Below, piece by piece: positions 229 through 15,542 of a DNA stretch of 32,000 nt. A model generated the notes under the pieces. That model was given only the letters and a program-made list of their open reading frames with translations, was not told where the DNA came from and did no database searches. The stretch is taken from NCBI GenBank assembly GCA_016933055.1, contig JAFGBS010000009.1:167590-199589 (forward strand). The letters are read 5' to 3'. Source of the DNA: Promethearchaeota archaeon. GTDB lineage: Archaea > Asgardarchaeota > Lokiarchaeia > Sigyniarchaeales > Promethearchaeaceae. The translations under genes and the position numbers were made by a program. How positions within the stretch are numbered: the first letter of the stretch is position 1; each line of letters starts with the position of its first letter.

Positions 229-486
229 GTGATTTCATCCATGGGAACAAATACCGATTATAATTCTGAGCAATCTAAAATACTCTCGTTAATAAAACAA
301 GGAGAGGATATTATCTCCGCTCGGATTACACTTGAATGTCCTTATTGCTCGTATAAGCGTATATTCAAAAATCAATTCAGTCCGAGCAAGATCGAGCTTA
401 TTACAGTGACATTTAAAATAATTGATTGGTTGACATGTGAGCGATGCGATCATCAGCTTAATTTTACGTTAGACCTATTTATTTGA
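229..486 (+). CDS. Small zinc-ribbon-like protein (two CxxC pairs), family unknown
   Basis: 85-aa ORF with a GTG at 229 and the first ATG at 241. It carries CPYC and CERC pairs about 40 residues apart. The 3' end overlaps the convergent gene 453..1601 by 34 nt. Confidence 0.4.
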   Translation: MISSMGTNTDYNSEQSKILSLIKQGEDIISARITLECPYCSYKRIFKNQFSPSKIELITVTFKIIDWLTCERCDHQLNFTLDLFI

Positions 487-1601
487 ATCATTTTGTCATT
501 CGGATCAGTCCCAAGCACCACTCTATATCGAATTTCATTTAGAGAATTTATTTTTTCTTGTTCTAATTTACCATTGACCAACACCTTATCTCCTTTGCGA
601 GCTTGTTCCAAAAATCTCCCCCGAAAGGTGAAAATTTCTATTTCTTCTATAGGAATTGGGTGAATGCTTTTTTGAATTGAATTAATTTGTAATTTGTAAC
701 TACCCGGAGTGAAGATCGATTTAGAATCATTCACAATTTCTCCTCGAAGAATGACTCGATCTAGACCTTTATAAGAGAAATCGTTAAAATCTGGCAGATT
801 TATATCATTTCGACATATTTCAATGTAACGAAGAAATACATCCCTTCCATCTATCAAGAATTGGTGAGTTTTCTGAAGTTCCATGCGTTTAAAGTCACGA
901 AATGGCACATGAAATCCAGCACCTCGGTTCTTGAAATGGGTTCGCATTAATCTTCCGGTATACGTCTTAATCAAGGATGAACCGTATTGAAATGACTTAG
1001 AATGGGAGAACCTATCCTCTAAAAAGGCATGAACCTTATGTGACTCTACTTCTCCATAAATAATAAGATCATAATCTGATTTAGGTTGGTTCAATCCTAC
1101 CATATATGAACCCGACAATCCTATGTGGGAAACAGGGATATCAGATCCTTCGTGAATAAACATTACTAAATTCTTTAACGACTCTTCAGGTTCAGATTCT
1201 AATTTCTCCTGTAAATACACTTCAGGAACATGAATAGTTTTTATATCTCGTATAGGAACTGCTTGCAGAGGGAAATCAAATAATTCTGATCGAAATATAT
1301 ATTCGGGTTTGAATTGAGATAAAATTCGGAATCTTGACTCAATATCATATATTTTGATGAAATTTTTGTGTGCAAATCGTACATCTGCTATATCCACAGA
1401 ATATTTCTTTTCAATTTCCTTTTGAATGCGGAATTTTTTTGTTTTTGGAGCATTTGCATAATTCCTGTTAAAAAAGTCAACGGGCATATATCTTAAATAT
1501 GCAATTTTATACATTTCGGGTTGAATTATTCCTTTAACATCAAAAATTAACCCCTCTTTCGTCTCGAGAAAATCTCCTTCAAACGTTCGGTAATCCATCA
1601 T
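453..1601 (-). CDS. Pol-beta-superfamily nucleotidyltransferase with a C-terminal OB-fold-like domain
   Basis: HIGLSGSYMVGLNQPKSDYDLIIYGE matches the G[SG]...D.D minimal nucleotidyltransferase signature. The C-terminal VILRGEIV...FRGRFLEQARKGDKVLVNGKLEQ looks like an OB barrel. Its ATG overlaps the mptA stop in ATGA (1598-1601). Confidence 0.6.
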   Translation of the reverse strand: MMDYRTFEGDFLETKEGLIFDVKGIIQPEMYKIAYLRYMPVDFFNRNYANAPKTKKFRIQKEIEKKYSVDIADVRFAHKNFIKIYDIESRFRILSQFKPEYIFRSELFDFPLQAVPIRDIKTIHVPEVYLQEKLESEPEESLKNLVMFIHEGSDIPVSHIGLSGSYMVGLNQPKSDYDLIIYGEVESHKVHAFLEDRFSHSKSFQYGSSLIKTYTGRLMRTHFKNRGAGFHVPFRDFKRMELQKTHQFLIDGRDVFLRYIEICRNDINLPDFNDFSYKGLDRVILRGEIVNDSKSIFTPGSYKLQINSIQKSIHPIPIEEIEIFTFRGRFLEQARKGDKVLVNGKLEQEKINSLNEIRYRVVLGTDPNDKMIQINRSNVKLS

Positions 1602-3638: not shown

Positions 3639-3751
3639 GCAGGTGTAATCAAGTGGTTACGATGCTAGCCTGGAATGAACGGAATAATTCCGTAAAATCC
3701 CGGTTAGCTAGTGGGTGAAAGCCCGCATGGGTTCGAATCCCATCGCCTGCG
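3639..3751 (+). tRNA. tRNA-Ser(GGA) with a 30-nt intron at the canonical 37/38 position
   Basis: Hand-folded. Acceptor GCAGGTG/CGCCTGC (one G-U) with discriminator G. D arm ATCA-AGTGGTTA-CGAT. Anticodon stem CTAGC/GCTAG with loop C-T-GGA-A (anticodon 3672-3674). Intron 3676-3705. Long variable arm T-GGGT-GAAA-GCCC-GC (class II). T arm ATGGG-TTCGAAT-CCCAT. No encoded CCA. Confidence 0.8.
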
Positions 3752-3769
3752 CTCTTAAAAACAATAAAA

Positions 3770-6352: not shown

Positions 6353-6394
6353 ATGAATTAAAAGGAAAAAGAATAGAGAAAATTCGATTACTAA

Positions 6395-7858
6395 TTAAAA
6401 TTGATCTAATTTTTTGGATTGGATCCAAATGTCCTCTAAAACGGGGGCAAACATTTTGATATGTTCATCCAATACTGAGCCCATCCCCGCTACTTGTAGT
6501 TCTCCATCTCCTTTGGAGACAACACAGACAATCATTTCCTCAAAATCTTTATTGAGAGCCCAAACCGTGCCGCGGGGGAAATATCGCAAGTCAACATTGG
6601 TCATTTCCTTTAATGTGTCCACTTTTCCTTTATCAGCAGAACTATTCAAATCAAAATCGGTAGAGATACGAACATTGATACGGGACTTTACTTTTGAGAG
6701 TGCTGTAAAATCAATATCTTTGATCGTGGGACAAATTACATATAACCGCATCTTAACCATGGAAAATGCCTCGTTTATCTGCGCTTTCATAGCTTCTGGT
6801 GATCTTATGAACCATACATCCTTAAAAGTCATCATAGAGGCTGCTTTAGAACGTTCCCAAAATTCCTGCATAGTTTTTTCTGCCAGATCCAATTGTCGGA
6901 CAACTGACATCATGGTATCTTCATCCAGTGTTTCCATTACTTCCTTTTGGAATTGCCCTTTTAATTCATTAATTCCTTTTTGAATAGAATTATTCACTTC
7001 AGTGACGCGTTTTTCTAAATCTCCTAATGTCTCTTCTAATCCTGCTTCGATATTGGTGAAAGAATCTCCTATTCCTGAACTTATCTCTCCAGCTGTATCC
7101 GTAATACTTCCTAATTGCTCAATAACTTGATCTAAGGTGTCTTGTGTAGTTTGGATTACCTTATCTCGGAAGTACCCTGCCATTTCTTCAAATTGGTCCT
7201 TAATAATACGTGAAACTATCTTTTCTGCAAAACTTGACAAGGCTCCCACTCGGAATTGCTTCTCGAATGCTTGCGAGATTTCAGATTTTATCGTTTCCAA
7301 TCGAGATTGCATTCGTCCGAATTCCATTTCAATATCTGGGGGAACTACTTCCTTAAGATTCAAAATAAATAATTTTAAATCATGGAATTTTTGAACCCCT
7401 TTCATTTGATTTTCAAATTTTGAGAGCTGGTCTTTCATTTTCACGGGGAGGGTTTCCTTCATTTCACGAATAAATTCCACATATTCTTGAAATTTGTCTA
7501 AGGATGCAATAGATTTCTCCATCCCGATGAACCTTCCCTCTAAAGCCGTAGGAGCTGCACTCTTCAATCCAGTAATAGATTCCTTAAATTGATGTATTTG
7601 TTTCATTAATGCAGCATATGGGGGTAATGCGGAATAATGGATAGTTTTTCCTGGTACTTCTCTTACCAATCCTTTTTCTACCAAATCTTTCGCGATTTCT
7701 TGCGCCCGTACATCATCTACTCCACCTAAAAGTCCCATTTCACCGGCACTAACTGGTCCTCTTCCAGTGATCCGAAAATAAACCTCTATTTCGTCTGGAG
7801 CTAATCCGATTAATTCGAGGACTTCTTGAGTAGATTTAAACTCTTGTTCACTTGACAT
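6395..7858 (-). CDS. TrmB-type winged-HTH protein with a long central coiled-coil insert and a TrmB-C/PLD-like C-terminal domain
   Basis: The N-terminus VLELIGLAPDEIEVYFRITGRGPVSAGEMGLLGGVDDVRAQEIAKDLVEKGLVREVPGKTIHYSALPP fits the TrmB HTH. Roughly residues 90-340 are heptad-like and E/K/Q-rich. The C-terminus VWFIRSPEAMKAQINEAFSMVKMRLYVICPT...INVRISTDFD resembles the TrmB middle/PLD-like domain. The start lies 8 nt after the stop of the upstream gene. Confidence 0.55.
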   Translation of the reverse strand: MSSEQEFKSTQEVLELIGLAPDEIEVYFRITGRGPVSAGEMGLLGGVDDVRAQEIAKDLVEKGLVREVPGKTIHYSALPPYAALMKQIHQFKESITGLKSAAPTALEGRFIGMEKSIASLDKFQEYVEFIREMKETLPVKMKDQLSKFENQMKGVQKFHDLKLFILNLKEVVPPDIEMEFGRMQSRLETIKSEISQAFEKQFRVGALSSFAEKIVSRIIKDQFEEMAGYFRDKVIQTTQDTLDQVIEQLGSITDTAGEISSGIGDSFTNIEAGLEETLGDLEKRVTEVNNSIQKGINELKGQFQKEVMETLDEDTMMSVVRQLDLAEKTMQEFWERSKAASMMTFKDVWFIRSPEAMKAQINEAFSMVKMRLYVICPTIKDIDFTALSKVKSRINVRISTDFDLNSSADKGKVDTLKEMTNVDLRYFPRGTVWALNKDFEEMIVCVVSKGDGELQVAGMGSVLDEHIKMFAPVLEDIWIQSKKLDQF

Positions 7859-7866
7859 GTTTTATT

Positions 7867-9015
7867 TCACTTCCCTTTTTTTTCGTGAAAATCATAATAT
7901 ACTTTTTCTAGATAATCCAAATGTTTGATCGCAGTCTCTTTTTTAATGATTCCCTCTTCTTGATCCTTACGGATATTCTCTAACATATATTCAGGGTAAA
8001 ATGGTCGAACTGCAACATCCGTGAGTAAAAATACCCACTCGACATTTTTGTTATCTTTAATTATTTTTAAAATATTGTCTTTCTCCATTACCGATAGCAA
8101 ATGAGCAACATCTAAGGCACCTTCATCTGTTCCTTTGGGAATCTTATTCAACGGGTAAGGTCTATCTCGGAATAGTGCTAAATAATCAAATTTATCTGGA
8201 TTAGTCAAATTGCGAGCAAGAACCAGATTATCTTCTTCTGTTGGCTTATAGTCTGCGAAAAATTTCTTCACTTCTGAAAGATATTTTTCGGCGAGATTTG
8301 GGTTTGGTAAGTTATTTTTAGCGTTATCGATGAGATCAAACGCTGGAGCTCGAAATATTGTAAAATCTGAGATGAGGAAAAGAAAAACTTCCGCTACTCC
8401 TTCAATCCAATCTTGTTTTACTAAACCACTTTTTACAAATGGATCTAGTGTGATATCAAGATTGGTAATGATTTTCTTTAATGACTCTTCCAGCAATGCT
8501 TGGAGTTGTTTCTTCGAGTAGGCACGTTCCCTAAGTAATTCTAGGATTTTTCTCCCTTTTTGACTATAATAAATCTGAGCTAGTAATTGCTCCTTCGTCA
8601 AATATTTCAATCTTTCCAATAAGAACAGTGCATTTTTCAGATACTGTTTAAGTTTCTTCACTACTTCATAATTTGCACTGATACTTGTACCGAGTTGGCG
8701 GAGGTATTTCAAGATCGCTTCATTTATATCTTTAATTACAGCCTCTCCGAACATATCTGGATCCTCACCCAATTCCAATATGAGATTAATCATAAAGGGG
8801 GTAGGGGAATCCATGCCTGTGAAGTAGGATGCAACGTTGGACTGAACTTTTTCTAGACGGACCAAGACATTTCCCGCTTCTGCAACACCAGTAATATGAG
8901 CATAAAATACTCGCATCATATCATCTAGATCCACTTTCAATTCTTCGGGATAATTCAACTGCACAATTAAACCATCAGTATCGGTCCATTTTGTAACTAC
9001 AAATCCTTTAGGCAT
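7867..9015 (-). CDS. Hypothetical cytoplasmic protein: N-terminal alpha/beta domain (roadblock/longin-like pattern) followed by helical, winged-helix-like segments
   Basis: 382 aa with no signal peptide or TM helix. The first ~110 aa (MPKGFVVTKWTDTDGLIVQLNYPE...NVLVRLEKVQSNVASYF...FMINLILELGEDPDMF...) alternate beta and alpha propensity. GRKILELLRERAYSKKQLQALLEES...LVKQDW and a second C-terminal segment look like wH units. Stop/start spacing to the upstream paralog is TAA-A-ATG. Confidence 0.5.
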   Translation of the reverse strand: MPKGFVVTKWTDTDGLIVQLNYPEELKVDLDDMMRVFYAHITGVAEAGNVLVRLEKVQSNVASYFTGMDSPTPFMINLILELGEDPDMFGEAVIKDINEAILKYLRQLGTSISANYEVVKKLKQYLKNALFLLERLKYLTKEQLLAQIYYSQKGRKILELLRERAYSKKQLQALLEESLKKIITNLDITLDPFVKSGLVKQDWIEGVAEVFLFLISDFTIFRAPAFDLIDNAKNNLPNPNLAEKYLSEVKKFFADYKPTEEDNLVLARNLTNPDKFDYLALFRDRPYPLNKIPKGTDEGALDVAHLLSVMEKDNILKIIKDNKNVEWVFLLTDVAVRPFYPEYMLENIRKDQEEGIIKKETAIKHLDYLEKVYYDFHEKKGK

Positions 9016-9016
9016 T

Positions 9017-10633
9017 TTATTTGCTCCCTTCTATTTTCTTTTCTGGTATAGTTTTTTCTTCTGGGGGTGACATATCTTCATAACCCGACATGTCTTTTTT
9101 TGGAGCAGCTTTCTCTGAAGGCTGCGATGGTGCTTTTCTACTAGACTTATCTAGTAGACGTTTTTCTTCTTCAAAAATATTTCTTCCAATTGTGTTGGAG
9201 TCTTTTGTTTGCAATGGCTTGGTAGCCCTTCCATGTCGGATTTTTCGTCGTAGTGACTTTACAGTTCTAACTTGTGCGGGGAATTTAAAAATACCTTCAT
9301 ACAATCCGATTCCTGTAGCTAAGGCAGCAAGCAATCCTGCAGAACTATAAATATAAGGTTGCAAGTTCGTTGGAGGTGGGTCTGGCAATATAACTATATA
9401 TGTTAGTTTGAGCACTACGTTATCTATGTAAATTCCAATCGGAGAATCTAATTCAAAATTATCCCCAATATACATTTGAATAGATACGGTAATATTTTCA
9501 TCCAAACTAATTAGTGATGTAACATTGTATCCATCAGGATTAGCAACTTGGTAAATATCTGTGGCGGCACTGATTTTGACCGTTTCATAGAGTTTCTTAT
9601 TACTGACAAACAATCGAAATTCCGAGTTTGGAGAAGCATCTGTTGGCCATGGGGTATCAATTTTGTACGAAAATTCAAAGGACGCGTCTCGAATCAAAAC
9701 ATTCGTGCTATTAAGTGAATTCCCGATTCCATCCCAAGAAGCTGTTGTTAATTGGTTCATTTTCTTTTGATACGTGAACGATAAACTCACATTTTTGATA
9801 TATATGTCATCAAAAAAGTCTTGATCGCTATTTCTATTATCCTCACAAAATATTCTGATCCCCACGGTTATTGTAAAGTTAAAATCATCCGTATTTAACA
9901 CTGAAGTAAGAAAGAATTTCAGATTTTCTTCGGTGACAGTTGTTATTAATGTATCCTCCATTTGGTCGAATGTCCCCGCACTATCTTTACCGAGATCAGA
10001 AGTTTGATTATATGCAATTTCATACACTTTTTGCTTTGGTAAATCTGAAATTAGTAAATAATACCTAATGTAATCGTAATCTGCCGCTTGATGGACAGCA
10101 TCTCCAGGAACTTCAATTCCTCCAAAATCAGGATTGTTTGCATGAACGGTTGCATTGATTACAGCACTTACGGATGCAGAAGTGATTGTATAATCACTCA
10201 TATTATTCGGCATGCTAACATTATAATCAAAATGAACAGAAGGTGATTGGTCTGAACGCTGACCATAAGTGTCTCCCCAGTAATGAGAAACATAAAATCC
10301 TTCTGAAGTCACATCATAATCATCTGGCAAATCTGGATAGGCTATATTGTTTACTGCTGTCCATGTATCAGAATTCAAAGGTGCATTTAGCTCCCATTCC
10401 AATTCCTCTCCAAGTAAATTATAAAGTGCCTCTCCTGAACTCGAACTAGTAGTAATATCAGATTCATCTCCTGCTATAGAAGTTGACCATTGAGAACTGA
10501 TAGGATCATCAAAACCACTTATCCAAACTACATCTTCATAAAGTATTTCCCGAGCAGAAACTAAAGGAATTGTGCTTAAAAGACTAATCACACATAAAAT
10601 GCCTATGCTGGTAATTAATAGGGATCTTTTCAT
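9017..10633 (-). CDS. Surface glycoprotein paralog 1: signal peptide, two jelly-roll/CBM-like modules, Pro-rich stalk, one TM helix, conserved basic cytoplasmic motif, low-complexity tail
   Basis: Signal peptide MKRSLLITSIGILCVISLLSTIPLVSA|RE. I counted 9 N-x-S/T sequons by hand. Stalk PDPPPTN, TM YIYSSAGLLAALATGIGLY, then EGIFKFPAQVRTVKSLRRKIRHGRATKPL and a 64-aa K/E/S/P-rich tail. The start overlaps the stop of paralog 2 (ATGA at 10630-10633). Confidence 0.8.
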   Translation of the reverse strand: MKRSLLITSIGILCVISLLSTIPLVSAREILYEDVVWISGFDDPISSQWSTSIAGDESDITTSSSSGEALYNLLGEELEWELNAPLNSDTWTAVNNIAYPDLPDDYDVTSEGFYVSHYWGDTYGQRSDQSPSVHFDYNVSMPNNMSDYTITSASVSAVINATVHANNPDFGGIEVPGDAVHQAADYDYIRYYLLISDLPKQKVYEIAYNQTSDLGKDSAGTFDQMEDTLITTVTEENLKFFLTSVLNTDDFNFTITVGIRIFCEDNRNSDQDFFDDIYIKNVSLSFTYQKKMNQLTTASWDGIGNSLNSTNVLIRDASFEFSYKIDTPWPTDASPNSEFRLFVSNKKLYETVKISAATDIYQVANPDGYNVTSLISLDENITVSIQMYIGDNFELDSPIGIYIDNVVLKLTYIVILPDPPPTNLQPYIYSSAGLLAALATGIGLYEGIFKFPAQVRTVKSLRRKIRHGRATKPLQTKDSNTIGRNIFEEEKRLLDKSSRKAPSQPSEKAAPKKDMSGYEDMSPPEEKTIPEKKIEGSK

Positions 10634-12396
10634 TGGTTTCCTTCCCCCTTTGAGGTAATATCAAGATTAGTATCGGTTTTTGACGTATCAATAGATTTAG
10701 GTGGTTTGGGTTCGTTAATTTTATCTGCTTCAACATAGGACTTTGAGGAAGCTTCTTTACTTGCAGCGGTACTTTTTGTAGAAGATGTTTTCAGTTTTTT
10801 CTGAAGTTGTGTTTTTTCTGAAGCGTGTATCTCATTACTAATTGAGCTAGCATCCTTTTTTGTTAAGGGTTTCGTGCCTCGCCCCGTCCGTATTCTTCTC
10901 TTTAAATTACGTATGTGACGAACTTGAGCTGGATATTTGAAATGGCCCTCATAAGCACCAAATCCTACCCCTAATAATACCACTCCTCCCATTAACCCGT
11001 AAAGATATGGCCAATTACTCTCAGGTGGAGGAGCTGGAGGTTCAATTAATACATAGGCTACCCACAATTGTACATTTGTTATAGAAACTGTAATATTATC
11101 TGCAAGCGCAAATTCATCTGCCAGATATAATTCAATTGAAAGTGTAATATTCACTTCCTTTTGAAGTAATTTCGTTACATTAAACCCTTCAGCCTTTGAT
11201 TCTTGAAATGAAAAAGTTCCAGAACTTAATTTAATGGTTTCGTTATGCATATTTCCATTAATTCGAATCCGTAACTCCGAATTTGGGGAGGACAGCTCCC
11301 AAGGTGTGTCGATCTTGAAATCGTATTTAACAATTCCATTTGTGATTTGTGCATTATCCTCAACGATGGAATTTCCTACTTGGCTCCAAGAAGCAGATGC
11401 GTCACGATTGATTATTTTTTCATAACTGAATGTTAAATTATAAGATTTAATTAGTAAATCATCCCATGAATCATCATCGTTTAAAAAATTATCTTCGCAC
11501 CATATTTTCATTCCCATGGTAAAGTTAAAATTTCGATTATCCGTGGAAAGAACATCAGAAAGAAAAAATATTAAACTCTCTTCTGGAACAGTGAACAAAT
11601 AAGTATCTGTTAAGCTATCATATGTTGTTGTCAAATATTCAGCATCCGAGGTATATACATCTTGTCCGAGAGGATAAGTATATTGTCCTGTTTGATACTG
11701 GGCGATTTCATATGATTTTGTATTGGTAAGATCAGAAACTAATGAATAAAATCTTACATAATCGTAAGTCGAGAATTGAGGTGTTGTCGCCTGTGATGGT
11801 GGAACATCCGCCACGTTAGTATAATCCCCATAAGCTTCAACTCCACCATTTCCATTACCGTAACCGTTATTGGCTTTAACAGTAGCGTTCACAATTACAG
11901 AGACATTTGCTGATGTAATTCTATAATCCGACATGTCAACAGGCATAGATATATTTCTAGTCCAATGAACTGAGGTTAATTGACCTGCTTCGGCTTCCGT
12001 CCAGAAATGTGTAACATACATACCTTCAGATGTGATATCATAATCGTCAGGGAATGTAGTTAATTCTGGATTTTGTACTACCGTCCAATTATCAGTATGT
12101 GGTGGATCTTCTGCGATCGAGAATGTGCGATAATCTCCCACTACCTTGAAATCAGCTTGCCCCGAAGTCGGGCTTTCTGCTATCAAATCAGTCAAATCTC
12201 CATTAACCGAACTTATCCATTCGGGATCAATCGGAGCAATAAAACCGGGATTAACCATCCATTCCTTATCGGTTCCATCTTGAGCATTTAGTAAAGAGAT
12301 ATGGGAAAAAAACGCAATAACGATAAAGAAAACTATTAATCGATAATATTTCTTTTTTATTGTAAACCCCTCTGTAGGTTTTGTTATCTTAATCAC
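10630..12396 (-). CDS. Surface glycoprotein paralog 2 (same architecture as 9017..10633)
   Basis: GTG start, hydrophobic signal/anchor YRLIVFFIVIAFFSHISLLNA|QDG, and 10 sequons by hand count. Blocks shared with paralog 1 include DDYDITSEGMYVTHFW, MSDYRITSANVSVIVNATV, YEIA, FFLSDVLSTD, NFNFT, WCEDN, LTFSYEK, KIDTPW and SPNSE. Stalk EPPAPPPESN, one TM helix, then YEGHFKYPAQVRHIRNLKRRIRTGRGTKPL and a 77-aa S/K/T-rich tail. Confidence 0.8.
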   Translation of the reverse strand: MIKITKPTEGFTIKKKYYRLIVFFIVIAFFSHISLLNAQDGTDKEWMVNPGFIAPIDPEWISSVNGDLTDLIAESPTSGQADFKVVGDYRTFSIAEDPPHTDNWTVVQNPELTTFPDDYDITSEGMYVTHFWTEAEAGQLTSVHWTRNISMPVDMSDYRITSANVSVIVNATVKANNGYGNGNGGVEAYGDYTNVADVPPSQATTPQFSTYDYVRFYSLVSDLTNTKSYEIAQYQTGQYTYPLGQDVYTSDAEYLTTTYDSLTDTYLFTVPEESLIFFLSDVLSTDNRNFNFTMGMKIWCEDNFLNDDDSWDDLLIKSYNLTFSYEKIINRDASASWSQVGNSIVEDNAQITNGIVKYDFKIDTPWELSSPNSELRIRINGNMHNETIKLSSGTFSFQESKAEGFNVTKLLQKEVNITLSIELYLADEFALADNITVSITNVQLWVAYVLIEPPAPPPESNWPYLYGLMGGVVLLGVGFGAYEGHFKYPAQVRHIRNLKRRIRTGRGTKPLTKKDASSISNEIHASEKTQLQKKLKTSSTKSTAASKEASSKSYVEADKINEPKPPKSIDTSKTDTNLDITSKGEGNQ

Positions 12397-12407
12397 ATTA
12401 TCTTTGT

Positions 12408-12423
12408 TTTAAATTAATTTAAA
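12408..12423 (-). promoter_or_regulatory. 16-nt perfect A/T palindrome TTTAAATTAATTTAAA at the TATA-box position upstream of paralog 2
   Basis: It lies 12-27 nt upstream of the GTG start at 12396 on the minus strand. It is AT-only, so a chance occurrence in this genome is plausible. Confidence 0.25.
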
Positions 12424-12556
12424 TTTTCGTTAGAGAACTCATAACTCTTCAAAAGAGATCGGGAATTATTTGAAATAATCACTCTATATTAAGATATTAT
12501 CAAAAATGATCATAAAAGAAATAAGTCGACCTTTAAAATTAAGGTATGAATAACTT

Positions 12557-13894
12557 TTACTCTACAGTGTTATGTTCCTTGTTCCGTGGATTGTACAAAA
12601 TTTTTGCCGTGTTCAATCGATCAGATTTATGTTCTCTAAATACCCCTCCGATCCTTACTGATAAATCTTCAAAACTATACTTGAATTTAATTAACTCCCA
12701 CAATTTCAAAGCTACGAACCAGAATCCGACTACGATCATTAAATACGAAATGTTCATGATGACATTGCCCATTACCGCATCAAATTCTCCACTTAACTCC
12801 CCAAAGCGTGAGTGAAAGATGTTACTCCACAAAATATTCCATAAAGCTTCTAAACAATAAATCGTCAACGAAAGCATTCCGAAGCGACGTATAAAGATAC
12901 TTCTTTTTACCGTTTTCTCACCAGATTCAAAATCAAATTTTCTGAAAAACCACGGGATCCACAATAACATCAGCCCGAGATTTATAAATGAGAGATCTGG
13001 GGGTATGTTCTTGTATCTAAATAAGTAAGTAATAATATCTGTAGAAATAGTAAATAGGTGATATCCTACTAGTAATAATCCAACAATGAGGAAAATCAAT
13101 CCCAGTTTTCTGCAATAGCGCTTAACGGCTTTATAAGGACGATCTTCCGCTAAAAAAATACCGATCACAATTCCAATAAGTGCATATCCTGCATAAGGCA
13201 GTACACAGTGAAGGGATCCTGCTATAAAAGAGAGGAAAAATGCTGGTACATAATACAATCTACCCATTTCCAAATAAGATAAAAATAAGGGATTTAACCA
13301 TTCCCATAGTGCCTTAGAAATGGTTAACCACACAATAGCAAATATTGTGAGATTACGTATATTTATGTTTTTTGATTCCTCAAACCGATCTTTCCGCCAC
13401 ATGAATAATAAAGTAAAACAGGAAATTAATCCTGAACTTGCAATCATAGATAACGCATCGGCTTTAAAGAAGATTTCAATCTCCGGCAGACTAAATGCTC
13501 TTTTCTGAATTGAACCAGTGAAAAGGGAGTACAATTGATGATCACCCGTTAGAGCAGGAGTTGCCATAACAAATAATCCCATGTAGACAAAATGAAAAAG
13601 CAAGATCAATAAATTATTTATGATAGATGGTCTCACACTTCTCCAGATAGAATTACCTGCATCTTTTCGGTGGTAAACGATATAAGAATTTGCAATACCA
13701 GTAATTAATGCGAATAATCCTGCCCAAGTGCCTAAATAAAGCATTGGGGCAAATATGACTAGGGGTGAACGTGGAAGATATTCTACTGCATTTCCTTCAC
13801 CGAGAAAAATTCCGAACACGATACCATGTGCAAAAACGACCCCAAAAATAGCTAAGCCTCGAATAAAATCGATACTTAACAGTCGTTTAGACAT
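12557..13894 (-). CDS. Multi-pass membrane protein, acyltransferase-3 / DUF1624 (HGSNAT-like) type
   Basis: The N-terminus MSKRLLSIDFIRGLAIFGVVFAHG matches the R..S.D..RG.A...V..H signature of membrane O-/N-acyltransferases. About 10 or more hydrophobic helices follow. Confidence 0.55.
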   Translation of the reverse strand: MSKRLLSIDFIRGLAIFGVVFAHGIVFGIFLGEGNAVEYLPRSPLVIFAPMLYLGTWAGLFALITGIANSYIVYHRKDAGNSIWRSVRPSIINNLLILLFHFVYMGLFVMATPALTGDHQLYSLFTGSIQKRAFSLPEIEIFFKADALSMIASSGLISCFTLLFMWRKDRFEESKNINIRNLTIFAIVWLTISKALWEWLNPLFLSYLEMGRLYYVPAFFLSFIAGSLHCVLPYAGYALIGIVIGIFLAEDRPYKAVKRYCRKLGLIFLIVGLLLVGYHLFTISTDIITYLFRYKNIPPDLSFINLGLMLLWIPWFFRKFDFESGEKTVKRSIFIRRFGMLSLTIYCLEALWNILWSNIFHSRFGELSGEFDAVMGNVIMNISYLMIVVGFWFVALKLWELIKFKYSFEDLSVRIGGVFREHKSDRLNTAKILYNPRNKEHNTVE

Positions 13895-13973
13895 TGATCA
13901 GATCAATGATTATTCTAATAAATATCTATTTGAAATATTTTGTTTTGAAGAAAAAATTAGTAAAGAAAAGGAA

Positions 13974-15542
13974 TTAAAGCGTTTTTGTGGATTTCACGTT
14001 AAGCTCGTCTATATTTAGTCTCATTTTAGTTAACATATTCACTTGATCTGCTCGTGAGGGGATATTTAGTTTCTTTATTCTTGCACCTCTTCGGATTTTT
14101 CTTCTTATGCTACGTATTTTTCTCACATGGACAGGAAATTTAAGAATTCCTTGATACAAGCTAAATACAATAAAAAGTACTGCTATTCCTCCAGCAAGGC
14201 CTGCTGTCAAGGGTAAATAATTGGGTGGTGGTTCTGGAATCGGATCAGGGGTGAATATCATATAAGAGATCTTAAAATAGATGTTATCGATGAATATTGT
14301 GTAATTAAGCGTATTCTCAAATTCATCCGCAATATATAATTGGAATGAAACTGCCACGCTCAAGTTTGGAGTCAATAAATCCTTTAAAGCTCTTCCACTA
14401 AATTCAATTGTTTGATATATTGGAGTAAAACTATCCAATTTTACCGTTTCACTGTATTTTCTGCCATTAATAACGGTTTGAATCTCACTATTAGGGGATG
14501 CGGAAGTCCATAACGAATTGATTTTGTAATCAAAACTCAGTGACGCATTTGTGATAGTTGTGCAATTAACGACATCACCAAGTTGACTATATGAGATGGA
14601 ACTAAATTGGTCAATTTTTTTCTCATAGGTAAAGGATAAGCTGAAATTTTTGATACGTAGATCGTACCATGTATCTCTGTCGTAGGTAGGGTAATTATCT
14701 TCTGCATAAGCATTAATTTCGAGAATAATCGAGAAGTTTGTGTAATCGTATTGTAAAACTTTTGTGAGATAAAGGATTAGGAGATCTTGGTCAACAGGAA
14801 CTAATTCGGTATCGTTTAAATATACTCTTTCACCATACGTATTTGGTCCTACAGAACCCGATATGTCTTTCCCTAGGGTTGTGGTTTTATTATATGCAAT
14901 CCGATAATTTTCAATGTTGTTTGGATCTGTAACCGTGATTGAAAACCGTGCGTAATCTCCAACACCAATATATCCACTACTCAATAACACATCACCTGGT
15001 GTTTCTAAGTTTGTATCTCCACTCCCATTTACAATTGCACTAACTGAGGCTGATGTAATCACATAATCACTCATATTAACAGGAAGTTCAACTGAATGCT
15101 CCCATGTCATACTGGGGAAATTTCTGGTTTGGTTTCCCGTTACACCGAAATAATTTGTGACGGGTTCTTCTAGGTACTCATGCCCAATATAGCAGCCATT
15201 TTCATCAATACCATAGATATCGGGTAAAATAAACTCAGGATTGGGGATTTCAGTCCAATTATCGGAGATCGGCGGATTTGCATTGAAGACATAATCTCCC
15301 TCCTCACCAATTAAAACGAATGTGGCTTCTCCTCCTGTTATTTGTCCATCCAAATCTTGATCATCCCCTGAAGTTTCGATTACCCAGAAAGAAGAATTAT
15401 CGAATCCATTATTTCGTAACCATTCAATATCTGTGTAATAATCTTCTCGTGCTGATACAGAAACAATTTTAGAAGAGACAATCGAGGATAAAATCAAGAT
15501 TGATATAATTATTACTAATCTCTTGATCCACTTCATTTTCAA
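13974..15542 (-). CDS. Surface glycoprotein paralog 3 (more divergent member of the same family)
   Basis: The signal peptide ends VSVSA|RE, as in paralog 1. I counted 13 sequons by hand. Shared blocks are NMSDYVITSASVSAIVN, RIAYNKT, NFS, AEDN, RIKNFSLSFTYEKK, SPNSE and FIDNIYFKISY. Stalk PDPIPEPPPN, one TM helix, then YQGILKFPVHVRKIRSIRRKIRRGARIKKL and a 30-aa tail. Confidence 0.8.
   Translation of the reverse strand: MKMKWIKRLVIIISILILSSIVSSKIVSVSAREDYYTDIEWLRNNGFDNSSFWVIETSGDDQDLDGQITGGEATFVLIGEEGDYVFNANPPISDNWTEIPNPEFILPDIYGIDENGCYIGHEYLEEPVTNYFGVTGNQTRNFPSMTWEHSVELPVNMSDYVITSASVSAIVNGSGDTNLETPGDVLLSSGYIGVGDYARFSITVTDPNNIENYRIAYNKTTTLGKDISGSVGPNTYGERVYLNDTELVPVDQDLLILYLTKVLQYDYTNFSIILEINAYAEDNYPTYDRDTWYDLRIKNFSLSFTYEKKIDQFSSISYSQLGDVVNCTTITNASLSFDYKINSLWTSASPNSEIQTVINGRKYSETVKLDSFTPIYQTIEFSGRALKDLLTPNLSVAVSFQLYIADEFENTLNYTIFIDNIYFKISYMIFTPDPIPEPPPNYLPLTAGLAGGIAVLFIVFSLYQGILKFPVHVRKIRSIRRKIRRGARIKKLNIPSRADQVNMLTKMRLNIDELNVKSTKTL

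What the first reader, a model, noticed from the sequence alone, without database searches (positions are those of the whole stretch)
6395..15542. Candidate undescribed surface-to-cytoplasm module: three paralogous type-I glycoproteins, an acyltransferase and two orphan cytoplasmic wH/coiled-coil proteins
Six co-directional minus-strand genes interrupt an otherwise coherent H4MPT biosynthesis neighbourhood. The order is paralog 3, acyltransferase-like protein, paralog 2, paralog 1, 382-aa protein, 487-aa protein. The last four are packed too tightly for independent promoters: ATGA overlap at 10630-10633, TAA-A-ATG at 9013-9019, and an 8-nt gap at 7859-7866. Secreted, membrane-anchored proteins are therefore co-expressed with two soluble proteins that lack signal peptides and carry winged-helix and coiled-coil features. 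I recognise no family for the ectodomains or for the 382-aa protein. A reasonable hypothesis is that the conserved cytoplasmic tails of the glycoproteins are docking sites for the two cytoplasmic partners, giving outside-in signalling, surface anchoring, or a membrane-tethered regulator. This is inference, not demonstrated.
Basis: partly seen in the sequence, partly recalled or inferred. Interest (0 to 1): 0.85.

Follow-up and report, generated by a model that had tools for sequence, protein, structure and literature searches.

The report
Asgard surface-protein / longin-adaptor operon
A gene cluster conserved across Lokiarchaeota, and recognisable in other Asgard archaea, links fast-evolving cell-surface proteins through a nearly invariant positively charged inner tail to two cytoplasmic proteins, one built like the eukaryotic nutrient-sensing subunits NPRL2/NPRL3; I found no description of this surface-to-interior link in the libraries and papers searched.

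Summary
The six minus-strand genes and their tight junctions are real. The source is a Lokiarchaeota MAG. Four genes form a conserved core: two surface-protein paralogs, the 382-aa protein and the 487-aa protein. In 79 related genome loci, a type-I surface protein with the same polybasic tail sits immediately upstream of the 382-aa homolog in 60 of 61 informative loci (median gap 3 nt). A homolog of the 487-aa protein sits immediately downstream in 65 of 66.

The tail is better conserved than the ectodomains (about 0.65 versus 0.42 identity). Eight protein clusters fuse ectodomain, TM helix, tail and the 382-aa domain into one chain.

A confident AlphaFold model (pLDDT 93) shows the 382-aa protein is a longin domain plus two winged helices. 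Its best full-length PDB matches are the GATOR1 subunits NPRL2/NPRL3, but it lacks the Arg finger and any Pfam NPR2 signal. The 487-aa protein is a TrmB-family protein with an acidic winged helix and a long helical insert.

The acyltransferase-like gene, the third paralog and the H4MPT neighbourhood are lineage-specific.

Best reading: an undescribed Asgard receptor–adaptor module. Direct tail binding and the output are inferred, not shown.

The parts
13974..15542 (-). Surface-protein paralog 3 (522 aa): signal peptide (nt 15450-15542), ectodomain, TM helix (nt 14145-14216), conserved basic tail LKFPVHVRKIRSIRRKIRRGARIKKL (nt 14067-14144). It is a lineage-specific extra copy.
   Evidence: ORF. 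36% identical to the 588-aa paralog. 13 sequons versus 6.0 expected. Coordinates. This position is found only in L001/L002.
12557..13894 (-). 445-aa multi-pass membrane protein, possibly an AT3-type acyltransferase. It is a lineage-specific insertion and not part of the conserved module.
   Evidence: At least 7 hydrophobic segments. Pfam Acyl_transf_3 E=0.21 but nearly full length, residues 6-393 against profile 2-322/326. No NCBIfam or PDB hit. A homolog is present only in L001/L002 among 80 loci.
10630..12396 (-). Surface-protein paralog (588 aa, GTG start): signal peptide (nt 12283-12396), ectodomain, TM (nt 10942-11010), tail FKYPAQVRHIRNLKRRIRTGRGTKPL (nt 10864-10941), then a low-complexity Ser/Lys-rich C-terminus.
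   Evidence: The stop codon overlaps the next gene's start as ATGA.
9017..10633 (-). Surface-protein paralog (538 aa): signal peptide (nt 10553-10633), ectodomain of about 420 aa from an Asgard-only family, TM (nt 9290-9358), tail FKFPAQVRTVKSLRRKIRHGRATKPL (nt 9212-9289).
   Evidence: The 82 homologs that carry a name are almost all Asgard-labelled, and none has a Pfam domain apart from two TIR fusions. A profile search finds no PDB sequence match.
7867..9015 (-). 382-aa acidic cytoplasmic protein: longin domain (aa 1-110, nt 8686-9015), long helix (aa 111-140), winged helix 1 (aa 141-225, nt 8341-8595), winged helix 2 (aa 226-340, nt 7996-8340), C-terminal helices (aa 341-382).
   Evidence: AF2 model with pLDDT 93.3 and pTM 0.88. 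Foldseek top hits are full-length NPRL2/NPRL3; longin-only hits have probability about 1.0. The winged helices match the PDB proteins PH1932 (ArsR-type wH by my recollection, E=4e-4) and 2d1h (E=0.03). No Pfam or NCBIfam family. 286 representative clusters in 1.84 billion proteins.
6395..7858 (-). 487-aa acidic TrmB-family protein: TrmB-type winged helix plus helix (aa 11-100, nt 7559-7828), alpha-helical insert of about 245 aa (aa 101-345, nt 6824-7558), conserved C-terminal alpha/beta domain (aa 346-487, nt 6398-6823). It lacks the Pro-rich linker and C-terminal helical module present in most orthologs.
   Evidence: Pfam TrmB 29 bits against a cut-off of 25.6. 23 of 23 orthologs hit TrmB, best 5e-11. 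PDB TrmB 3qph E=3e-6 and TrmBL2 E=5e-3. Length classes of 486-492 and 634-678 aa. Net charge -18; the wH region has pI 5.1.
6353..6394 (-). T-rich spacer downstream of the last gene, convergent with the beta-RFAP synthase gene. It is the likely end of the transcription unit.
   Evidence: The sequence read contains several oligo-T tracts. That such tracts terminate archaeal transcription is my own knowledge and was not tested.

Best explanation
The core of the finding (588-aa and 538-aa surface proteins, the 382-aa protein and the 487-aa protein) is one copy of an operon conserved throughout Lokiarchaeota and recognisable in Hel-, Odin- and Sigyn-archaeal genomes. It encodes a transmembrane receptor–adaptor module. 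One to three fast-evolving, sequon-rich type-I surface proteins expose variable ectodomains. Their single TM helix is followed by a nearly invariant polybasic amphipathic segment of about 35 residues (consensus FKYPPMVRKIRKLKKKVRKxKKTKPI). I propose that this tail is the docking site for the tandem winged-helix core of the acidic 382-aa protein. Its N-terminal longin domain would be an exchangeable output platform, of the kind that in eukaryotes holds small GTPases. The acidic TrmB-fold protein with its long helical insert would act as a co-adaptor or scaffold under the membrane rather than as a classical DNA-binding regulator. The module would thus physically couple surface proteins to cytoplasmic machinery. 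Shown here: the anatomy, the co-inheritance, the gene fusion and the fold. Inferred: direct tail binding, which domain binds the tail, and the output.
For: Linkage. In 79 genome loci, a tail-bearing type-I ORF lies immediately upstream of the 382-aa homolog in 60 of 61 loci with enough sequence; the exception is N-masked. The median gap is 3 nt. The TrmB-like gene lies immediately downstream in 65 of 66. The reverse look-up from a surface-protein homolog returns the same operon (L086).

Tail. Ectodomains range from about 500 to 1700 aa and differ in architecture, yet share the tail. Mean pairwise identity is 0.65-0.69 for the tail, 0.42 for the ectodomain and 0.24 beyond the tail.

Fusions. 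Eight representative clusters encode ectodomain, TM, tail, a linker of about 75 aa and the 382-aa domain in one chain.

Domain swaps. When the same ectodomain carries a cytoplasmic TIR domain, the tail and the 382-aa gene are both absent. In a Helarchaeota locus the tail-bearing surface protein is followed by a protein that keeps only the wH-wH core behind an HhH-type N-terminus.

Cross-class conservation. In Odinarchaeum LCB_4 a 382-like gene is followed, after a 136-aa ORF, by a 1552-aa type-I protein with a KKPIQVKKI motif after its TM. In a Sigynarchaeota locus a 382-like gene lies near a homolog of the 487-aa protein (E=4e-99), with an Arf-like GTPase gene between them.

Fold. The AF2 model has pLDDT 93. 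Foldseek's best PDB matches are full-length NPRL2/NPRL3 (E=5e-4, probability 0.98), and longin domains of Lst4, FLCN, DENND1 and a Lokiarchaeota longin match at probability about 1.0. NPRL2/3 are described as a longin domain plus repeated winged HTH domains (PMC3747258).

GTPase context. All four loci examined for the fused paralog are flanked by GTPase genes; Pfam confirmed Roadblock-Ras architecture for those in L081.

Charge. Tails carry +10 to +14; the longin domain carries -8 and the TrmB-like protein -18.
Against: No binding experiment or co-folding was possible. Conserved operons and fusions show functional coupling, not which surfaces touch. The canonical operon has no GTPase gene, and strong GTPase hits occur within 10 kb in only 3 of 79 loci. 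The longin domain has no conserved arginine in the beta4-beta5 loop, and its conserved Gly is not followed by Pro, so GAP activity is unlikely. No sequence-level link to NPRL2 was found, though the hhalign test was weak because the NPRL2 profile contained only vertebrate sequences. The global TM-score to NPRL2/3 is only about 0.25. The tail motif is kept even when the 382-aa domain is covalently fused, so the tail may do something other than recruit that domain. The tail identity figure is partly inflated because tails were selected with a motif pattern. A polybasic juxtamembrane segment could also be conserved for topology or lipid binding.
Confidence: 0.55

Rival explanations
1. Structural surface coat with a sub-membrane anchor. 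The variable glycoproteins are the unordered surface densities of S-layer-less Lokiarchaeia. The 382/487-aa proteins form a passive membrane skeleton that anchors and spaces them through the basic tails, with no signalling.
For: Lokiarchaeum ossiferum lacks an S-layer and shows unidentified surface densities and complex surface proteins (PMC9834061). No S-layer protein was detected in P. syntrophicum (PMC11284389). The operon is single-copy and near-universal in Lokiarchaeota-labelled loci. The 487-aa protein has a 245-aa helical insert with sub-threshold apolipoprotein/Baculo_PEP_C-type matches in 16 of 23 orthologs.
Against: Longin plus tandem-wH proteins are regulatory or adaptor platforms wherever they have been characterised. 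The same ectodomain is reused with a TIR effector domain, which fits a sensor better than a coat protein. No abundance data are available.
Confidence: 0.2
2. Membrane-tethered transcription control. The TrmB-like protein, or the wH domains of the 382-aa protein, bind DNA. They are sequestered at the membrane by the tails and released when the ectodomain senses a ligand.
For: The N-terminal domain passes the Pfam TrmB gathering score and matches TrmB/TrmBL2 in the PDB. The 382-aa protein carries two winged helices that match wH regulators (PH1932, 2d1h) in the PDB, and wH1 is basic with pI 9.0. Foldseek also lists CodY-type sensor-plus-wH regulators.
Against: The TrmB-type wH region is acidic (pI 5.1). 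Its predicted recognition helix reads EEERAAEIA in the family consensus, where P. furiosus TrmB has PYNRVYDTI (the helix assignment and its role in DNA contact are my inference). In NPRL2/3 the winged helices mediate protein-protein contacts (my recollection of the GATOR1 structures, not checked here). In the fused paralogs the 382-aa domain is permanently membrane-tethered.
Confidence: 0.12
3. Biogenesis or sorting adaptor. The tail is a sorting signal read by the longin protein, as AP sigma/mu or the SR-alpha SRX longin domains do in eukaryotes (my own knowledge), to target or cluster these type-I proteins, for example into protrusions.
For: The combination of a conserved cytoplasmic tail with a longin-domain partner fits this model. 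GTPase genes flank the fused paralogs.
Against: A general sorting factor would not be expected to be encoded next to its cargo in every genome, nor fused to it. The Helarchaeota variant lacks the longin domain but keeps the tail and the wH-wH core.
Confidence: 0.08
4. Antiviral or conflict sensor. The hypervariable ectodomains detect or decoy viruses, and the cytoplasmic partners trigger a defence response.
For: The ectodomain is fused to TIR domains in P0348 and P0354. The 382-aa domain is fused to SIR2_2 plus TPR in P0202. Ectodomains evolve quickly and are duplicated.
Against: PADLOC gives no meaningful hit. The operon is near-universal, syntenic and has highly conserved cytoplasmic parts (about 60% identity), unlike patchy defence islands. 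No relative was found in viral contigs.
Confidence: 0.04
5. The genes are neighbours by chance or by shared regulation only, without a joint function.
For: Only gene order is observed directly in the window.
Against: The order is kept in 60/61 and 65/66 loci, with overlapping or 3-nt junctions, and eight independent fusion clusters exist.
Confidence: 0.01

Closest known systems
GATOR1 subunits NPRL2/NPRL3 (eukaryotic longin-domain GAP complex for Rag GTPases) and the 'NPRL2-like' longin proteins already reported in Asgard archaea
   Same: The linear architecture is the same, N-terminal longin domain followed by repeated winged-helix domains, and the size is nearly identical (382 versus 380 aa). 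These are the best full-length structural matches in the PDB. The architecture is described in PMC3747258. The relatives act at a membrane surface next to transmembrane proteins and small GTPases, and fused paralogs of this protein sit beside GTPase genes, those tested being Roadblock-Ras fusions.
   Different: There is no Pfam NPR2/NPR3 signal and no profile-profile match. No arginine finger or GP motif is conserved. The global TM-score is only about 0.25. The operon partners are surface proteins and a TrmB-like protein, not DEPDC5 or Rag. The Asgard NPRL2-like proteins described by Liu et al. (bioRxiv 2020.10.19.343400) are a longin domain plus a small NPRL2-specific C-domain, or fusions to two-component domains. 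I could not test whether the 382-aa family belongs to one of those asCOGs.
TrmB / TrmBL2 family of archaeal transcription regulators
   Same: The N-terminal winged helix plus following helix is homologous (Pfam above gathering score; PDB 3qph E=3e-6). By eye, the region after residue 345 (VWF.RS....K.QI......K.R..I..P) resembles the start of the TrmB C-terminal domain.
   Different: A helical insert of about 245 residues is present. The wH and its recognition helix are acidic. Most orthologs carry an extra Pro-rich linker and a conserved C-terminal module. The gene is always encoded next to a longin-wH protein and surface proteins.
Toll-like-receptor-type single-pass receptors (ectodomain, TM, cytoplasmic signalling domain)
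   Same: Homologs P0348 and P0354 have exactly this layout, using the same ectodomain family with a TIR domain. The window's proteins have the same ectodomain and TM, with a docking tail in place of a built-in effector.
   Different: The ectodomain gave no Pfam match to any family, LRR repeats included. The window's proteins carry no TIR domain. Any resemblance is in layout only.
Archaeal S-layer and stalk/anchor proteins (e.g. SlaA/SlaB) and C-terminal sorting signals (PGF-CTERM/archaeosortase)
   Same: These are also secreted, sequon-rich proteins with a C-terminal TM anchor, and they are found in archaea.
   Different: No sequence similarity was found. The cytoplasmic tail here is long (57-103 aa) with a conserved 35-residue motif, whereas sortase signals end (from my own knowledge) in a few basic residues. 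Dedicated cytoplasmic partners are encoded alongside.

Membership tests
NPRL2/NPRL3 (GATOR1 longin subunits; Pfam NPR2 PF06218 / NPR3) | N-terminal longin domain (beta-beta-alpha-beta-beta-beta-alpha) | tested here: met
   In the AF2 model (pLDDT 93) residues 4-106 show this topology. Foldseek matches the longin domains of Lst4, NPRL2 (6ces_N), FLCN, DENND1 and Lokiarchaeota 8yqg at probability 0.98-1.0.
NPRL2/NPRL3 (GATOR1 longin subunits; Pfam NPR2 PF06218 / NPR3) | C-terminal repeated winged helix-turn-helix domains | tested here: met
   The model contains two wH units, residues 141-225 and 226-340. The PDB profile search matches PH1932 (E=4e-4) and 2d1h (E=0.03), both annotated as (hypothetical) transcriptional regulators. 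This architecture is defined for NPRL2/3 in PMC3747258.
NPRL2/NPRL3 (GATOR1 longin subunits; Pfam NPR2 PF06218 / NPR3) | Sequence membership (Pfam NPR2/NPR3 or profile-profile match) | tested here: not met
   None of the 65 family members shows NPR2 or NPR3 among the listed Pfam hits, even at E<=10 (top 25 of 113 families shown). hhalign of A3 against NPRL2 alignment A4 gave probability 0.4, but A4 contains only vertebrate sequences (Neff 1.4), so that test is weak.
NPRL2/NPRL3 (GATOR1 longin subunits; Pfam NPR2 PF06218 / NPR3) | Catalytic arginine finger in the longin domain (NPRL2 R78) and GP motif in the beta1-beta2 loop | tested here: not met
   In A3, positions 67-73 (the beta4-beta5 loop) carry Arg in at most 5 of 65 sequences. 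G15 is conserved in 56 of 65 but is followed by L, A or V rather than P. The motifs are defined in PMC12290439; placing R78 in the beta4-beta5 loop is my own reading of the NPRL2 sequence.
NPRL2/NPRL3 (GATOR1 longin subunits; Pfam NPR2 PF06218 / NPR3) | Works with a Rag/Arf-type small GTPase | tested here: inconclusive
   GTPase genes flank all four fused-paralog loci examined; Pfam confirmed Roadblock-Ras architecture for the two tested in L081. An Arf-like GTPase gene lies in the Sigyn locus. Only 3 of 79 canonical loci have a strong GTPase hit nearby.
TrmB family (PF01978) | N-terminal TrmB-type winged helix above the curated score | tested here: met
   The window protein scores 29.0 bits against a cut-off of 25.6. 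23 of 23 orthologs hit, best 5e-11. PDB 3qph aligns residues 12-99 at E=3e-6.
TrmB family (PF01978) | DNA-binding recognition helix and function as a transcription regulator | not testable with these tools
   Sequence gives only a hint. The wH region has pI 5.1, and the aligned helix reads EEERAAEIA where TrmB has PYNRVYDTI. This argues against DNA binding but does not settle it.
TrmB family (PF01978) | C-terminal effector (sugar-binding or TrmBL2-type) domain | tested here: inconclusive
   The NCBIfam TrmB and TrmBL2 equivalog models are far below their cut-offs (22 bits against 600; 14 against 530) and cover only the N-terminal part. The PDB alignment stops at about residue 100-150. The resemblance of residues 346-390 was judged by eye only.
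S-layer / adhesin families | Ectodomain similarity to a characterised S-layer, adhesin or Ig-like repeat family | tested here: not met
   The three paralogs give no Pfam or NCBIfam hit. No precomputed Pfam domain appears in 80 of 82 homologs. A profile search finds no PDB sequence hit. Longer relatives show only sub-threshold Invasin_D3, Big_13, Laminin_G_3 and DUF2341 hits in added domains.
Acyltransferase 3 (PF01757) | Match to the AT3 profile above the curated score | tested here: inconclusive
   The match has E=0.21 and 11 bits against a cut-off of 31, but spans residues 6-393 against profile 2-322/326. The N-terminal D9, R12-G13 and H23 resemble the AT3 TM1 motif, from my own knowledge. 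There is no PDB hit.
Known anti-phage defence systems (PADLOC) | Any component matching a defence-system model | tested here: not met
   Only weak coiled-coil-type matches of the 487-aa protein to DruC and ZorA (E>=1e-4). The other five proteins give nothing.

The most novel reading that the evidence does not exclude
The operon is a prokaryotic receptor–adaptor system. A conserved sorting or docking motif in the cytoplasmic tail of type-I surface proteins would be read by an NPRL2/NPRL3-like longin/winged-helix protein that serves as a platform for small GTPases. If so, it is an Asgard forerunner of two eukaryotic principles: longin-domain complexes (GATOR1, folliculin, C9orf72-SMCR8, AP adaptors) that are recruited to membranes by the cytoplasmic parts of transmembrane proteins, and cell-surface input that is relayed to GTPase switches.
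Probability: 0.2. Interest if true: 0.92.

Novelty: categorically new. Interest (0 to 1): 0.78.

Why it matters
Lokiarchaeia lack an S-layer. Their membrane carries unidentified surface densities and complex surface proteins that are thought to mediate the cell-cell contacts relevant to eukaryogenesis (PMC9834061). This operon offers concrete candidates for those proteins.

It also offers a first candidate route by which an Asgard cell could connect its surface to cytoplasmic machinery. One partner has the architecture of eukaryotic GATOR1 longin subunits, and its fused paralogs sit beside Roadblock-GTPase genes.

The system is small and sharply defined: a 26-35 residue tail peptide and two soluble proteins. 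The docking hypothesis can therefore be tested directly by co-folding, peptide pull-downs and cryo-ET labelling in the cultured strains. A positive result would place 'NPRL2-like' eukaryotic signature proteins in a defined cellular context for the first time.

If instead the module proves to be only a structural anchor, it would still identify what replaces the S-layer in these archaea.

Tried and rejected
- The first AF2 run, with 20 close homologs, gave pLDDT 57 and was unusable. It was rescued with a 65-sequence alignment that included distant representatives.
The resulting profile (Neff 1.4) gave no hhalign signal, so that test is uninformative rather than negative.
- Pfam, NCBIfam, PADLOC and PDB sequence searches of the ectodomains and of the 445-aa protein gave nothing usable.
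- No relative of the ectodomain was found in viral contigs. The 382-aa family alignment was too divergent for a viral scan.
- The search for GTPase genes in canonical loci was largely negative, with strong hits in 3 of 79 loci.
- I considered a PLD-type HKD site in the C-domain of the 487-aa protein. The invariant H466-x-K468 is not followed by the canonical spacing (by eye, from A5), so I rejected it.
- I considered an archaeosortase-type C-terminal sorting signal and rejected it because the tail is long and conserved.
- The other 382-aa ORF at 453-1601 is unrelated.
- I found no paper in the held library that describes this operon.

Full report
**Observation.** The three tight junctions read as described: ATGA at 10630-10633, TAA-A-ATG at 9013-9019 and an 8-nt gap at 7859-7866. 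The 588-, 538- and 522-aa proteins are true paralogs, 43% and 36% identical over their full length. Each has a signal-peptide-like N-terminus, a sequon-enriched ectodomain (9, 10 and 13 N-X-S/T against 5.4-6.5 in shuffles), one C-terminal hydrophobic helix and a basic tail. The 382- and 487-aa proteins have no hydrophobic segment. Only the GTG start at 12396 gives the 588-aa protein a signal peptide. The flanks are H4MPT/pterin genes. Glycosylation and co-transcription are predictions, not observations.

**Source.** The 382-aa protein is identical to a hypothetical protein of a Lokiarchaeota MAG (JW776_06255), and the window lies on a 117-kb Logan contig. In NCBI taxonomy, Promethearchaeota is the current phylum name; it contains only the class Promethearchaeia and unclassified members. 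That it corresponds to the former Lokiarchaeota is my own knowledge.

**Conserved linkage.** A profile of the 382-aa family retrieved 79 distinct loci from species-representative genomes. I mapped the window's proteins onto them with tblastn and phmmer and counted systematically.
- In 60 of 61 loci with at least 2.5 kb of upstream sequence, the ORF immediately upstream on the same strand is a type-I protein carrying the tail motif. The one exception is interrupted by masked N. The median gap is 3 nt.
- In 65 of 66 loci with enough downstream sequence, the next gene is a homolog of the 487-aa protein.
- One, two or three tail-bearing genes precede the 382-aa homolog.
- The H4MPT genes, the 445-aa membrane protein and a third paralog beyond it appear only in the window's own contig and its closest relative (L001, L002). 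Elsewhere an SDR gene lies upstream and a DUF6786 or cupin gene downstream. The conserved unit is therefore [surface protein]1-3, then 382, then 487.
- The reverse test agrees. Starting from a surface-protein homolog on a 461-kb contig returns SDR, GP, GP, 375-aa, TrmB-like.

**The tail.** Across the loci, 80 ORFs outside the window's own contig share a motif right after the TM helix, with consensus Q-T-H-F-K-Y-P-P-M-V-R-K-I-R-K-L-K-K-K-V-R-K-x-K-K-T-K-P-I. Conservation extends about 35 residues. These ORFs range from about 500 to 1700 aa, and several were not recognised as ectodomain homologs. Mean pairwise identity is 0.65-0.69 in the tail, 0.42 in the ectodomain of the same proteins and 0.24 just beyond the tail. 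The tail figure is somewhat inflated because I selected sequences with a motif pattern, but positions outside the pattern are also conserved. The hydrophobic residues V, I, L and V recur every three to four positions among Lys/Arg, which fits an amphipathic basic helix (my inference). The window's tails carry +10 to +14 net charge. The longin domain of the 382-aa protein carries -8 and the 487-aa protein -18.

**The 382-aa protein.** It has no Pfam or NCBIfam family. An exhaustive profile search of 1.84 billion representatives found 286 clusters (82 below 1e-30), down to about 25% identity. Those that could be named are from Odinarchaeum LCB_4, Helarchaeota, Sigynarchaeota and Lokiarchaeota. 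With 65 diverse sequences, AlphaFold2 gave pLDDT 93.3 and pTM 0.88. The model shows a beta-beta-alpha-beta-beta-beta-alpha longin domain (aa 1-110), a long helix, two winged-helix units (141-225 and 226-340) and terminal helices.

Foldseek against the PDB puts GATOR1 NPRL2 and NPRL3 chains on top, aligned over the whole length (E=5e-4, probability 0.98). Yeast Npr2, the Lst4, FLCN, DENND1 and C9orf72/SMCR8 longin domains and a Lokiarchaeota Roadblock-Longin protein follow. The global TM-score is only about 0.25, so the domains are arranged differently or the match is architectural. NPRL2/3 are described as a longin domain plus two or more winged HTH repeats (PMC3747258). The wH units also match the PDB regulators PH1932 and 2d1h by sequence profile.

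Membership fails on sequence. No NPR2 or NPR3 Pfam signal appears in any of the 65 members. There is no hhalign match, though the NPRL2 profile was poor. No arginine finger or GP motif is conserved (motifs from PMC12290439). 'NPRL2-like' longin proteins have been reported in Asgard archaea (bioRxiv 2020.10.19.343400; PMC9834061), but I found no mention of this operon.

**The 487-aa protein.** Its N-terminus is a TrmB-type winged helix plus the following helix. Pfam scores above the gathering cut-off, 23 of 23 orthologs hit, and PDB TrmB 3qph matches at E=3e-6 with TrmBL2 at 5e-3. A helical insert of about 245 residues follows, giving only sub-threshold apolipoprotein/Baculo_PEP_C-type matches, and then a conserved C-terminal domain. 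Sixty-two of 68 complete orthologs (634-678 aa) carry an additional Pro-rich linker and a conserved C-terminal helical module. The window's protein belongs to the short class of 486-492 aa. The wH region is acidic (pI 5.1). The helix aligned to TrmB's recognition helix reads EEERAAEIA in the consensus. I therefore doubt that it binds DNA, but this is inference.

**Fusions and swaps.** Eight representative clusters encode one chain with a large ectodomain, a TM helix, the tail motif (7 of 8), a linker of about 75 residues and the full 382-aa domain at the C-terminus. One of them lies on the same contig as a canonical operon (L081 and L013), so these are paralogs and not replacements. All four fused-paralog loci examined are flanked by small-GTPase genes, of 306-327 aa and a 616-651-aa double GTPase. 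Pfam showed Roadblock plus Ras domains in the two L081 proteins tested.

Other variants point the same way.
- The same ectodomain family occurs with a TM helix and a cytoplasmic TIR domain. There the conserved tail and the 382-aa gene are both missing.
- In a Helarchaeota locus a tail-bearing surface protein is followed by a 400-aa protein that keeps only the wH-wH core (E=1e-74) behind an HhH-type N-terminus. Related proteins have one to three such repeats.
- In Odinarchaeum a 382-like gene is followed, after a 136-aa ORF, by a 1552-aa type-I protein whose TM helix is followed by KKPIQVKKI.
- In Sigynarchaeota a 382-like gene lies near an Arf-like GTPase gene and a 921-aa ortholog of the 487-aa protein (E=4e-99).
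- Another family member is fused to SIR2_2 plus TPR.

**Mechanism.** The data show that tail-bearing surface proteins, the longin-wH-wH protein and the TrmB-like protein are inherited, ordered and sometimes fused as one unit. The constant elements are the tail and the wH-wH core, whereas the ectodomain and the N-terminal domain of the adaptor are exchangeable. The most economical reading is a receptor–adaptor module. The basic amphipathic tail docks on the wH-wH core. The longin domain is the output platform, with a GTPase link in the fused paralogs. The acidic TrmB-fold protein is a co-adaptor or scaffold. I give this 0.55.

The rivals are:
- a passive sub-membrane anchor for the S-layer-less surface coat (0.20);
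- a membrane-tethered transcription regulator (0.12);
- a sorting or biogenesis adaptor (0.08);
- an antiviral sensor (0.04);
- chance adjacency (0.01).

One observation does not fit simply. The tail is retained even when the adaptor is covalently fused, which hints that the tail has a second role, such as membrane-surface binding or contact with the TrmB-like protein.

**The extra genes.** The 445-aa protein is a multi-pass membrane protein with a weak but full-length Acyl_transf_3 match and an AT3-like N-terminal motif. If it is an AT3 acyltransferase it could modify glycans on its neighbours. However, it is confined to this lineage and is not part of the module.

**Novelty and limits.** No library searched (Pfam, NCBIfam, PADLOC, PDB sequences) and none of eight full-text literature searches describes this operon, the ectodomain family or the tail motif. 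The folds of the cytoplasmic parts are known kinds. The system as composed is not.

Limits are as follows.
- There is no interaction or expression evidence.
- The ectodomain and the 487-aa protein have no structure models.
- NCBI phylum labels of several MAGs (Thor-, Hermod-, Hod- and Heimdall-archaeota with about 60% identical proteins) may be unreliable.
- I could not check whether the cultured strains carry the operon.

Noticed in passing
window 3639-3752 (+): tRNA-Gly(CCC). Rfam reports a 113-nt span and ARAGORN an 89-nt gene, so it may contain an intron or extension.
   Followed up: no
L085 4563-9121 (P0348, P0354): The same surface ectodomain family is fused to a TM helix and a cytoplasmic TIR domain. 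Two such genes sit in tandem next to a Ras/Roc GTPase gene and TPR-protein genes, giving a Toll-like-receptor layout in an Asgard archaeon.
   Followed up: partly
L081 8001-14273; L082 3213-10859; L090 151-5079; L091 3622-9995: These are giant paralogs (1600-2550 aa) in which ectodomain, TM, tail and the 382-aa domain form one chain. All four are flanked by small-GTPase genes (Roadblock-Ras where tested in L081, and a double GTPase in L081 and L091), with a coiled-coil gene upstream in L081 and L082. L081 is on the same contig as a canonical operon.
   Followed up: partly
P0202 (Helarchaeota label); P0143, P0152: The 382-aa domain occurs fused to SIR2_2 plus TPR repeats, or to long Lys/Glu/Pro-rich C-terminal extensions.
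   Followed up: partly
L084 8664-9866; P0130, P0131, P0133: A subfamily keeps the wH-wH core but replaces the longin domain with one to three HhH-type repeats. In L084 it still follows a tail-bearing surface protein, and no TrmB-like gene is present.
   Followed up: partly
L036, L042, L043: The module is duplicated in tandem: 382-like, then a surface protein of about 1230-1320 aa, then a second 382-like gene. A TrmB-like gene follows in L036 and L042; L043 ends before that point.
   Followed up: no
window 6395-7858 compared with loci L003-L079: The window's TrmB-like protein belongs to a minority short class of 486-492 aa (6 of 68). This class lacks the Pro-rich linker and the conserved C-terminal helical module of about 70 aa found in the 634-678 aa majority.
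   Followed up: partly
loci L005-L076, flanks of the module: In most Lokiarchaeota loci the module lies between an SDR gene (267 aa, upstream) and a DUF6786 gene (354 aa, opposite strand) or a cupin gene (123 aa). In the window's lineage it sits inside an H4MPT/pterin gene cluster instead, which implies relocation.
   Followed up: partly
L016, L019, L029, L030, L048, L059, L070: Where two surface-protein genes of about 540 aa precede the 382-like gene, each finds its best cross-genome match at the same position (14 of 14). This suggests two conserved paralog classes, possibly a heteromer. Within-locus similarity is nevertheless high.
   Followed up: partly
P0361: A surface-protein homolog on a 2.5-kb contig is labelled Neomarinimicrobiota bacterium. 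This is probably a binning error rather than transfer to bacteria.
   Followed up: no
window 453-1601 (-): A second ORF of exactly 382 aa lies next to the GTP cyclohydrolase (GCHY-1) gene. It is unrelated to the 382-aa protein of the module.
   Followed up: yes
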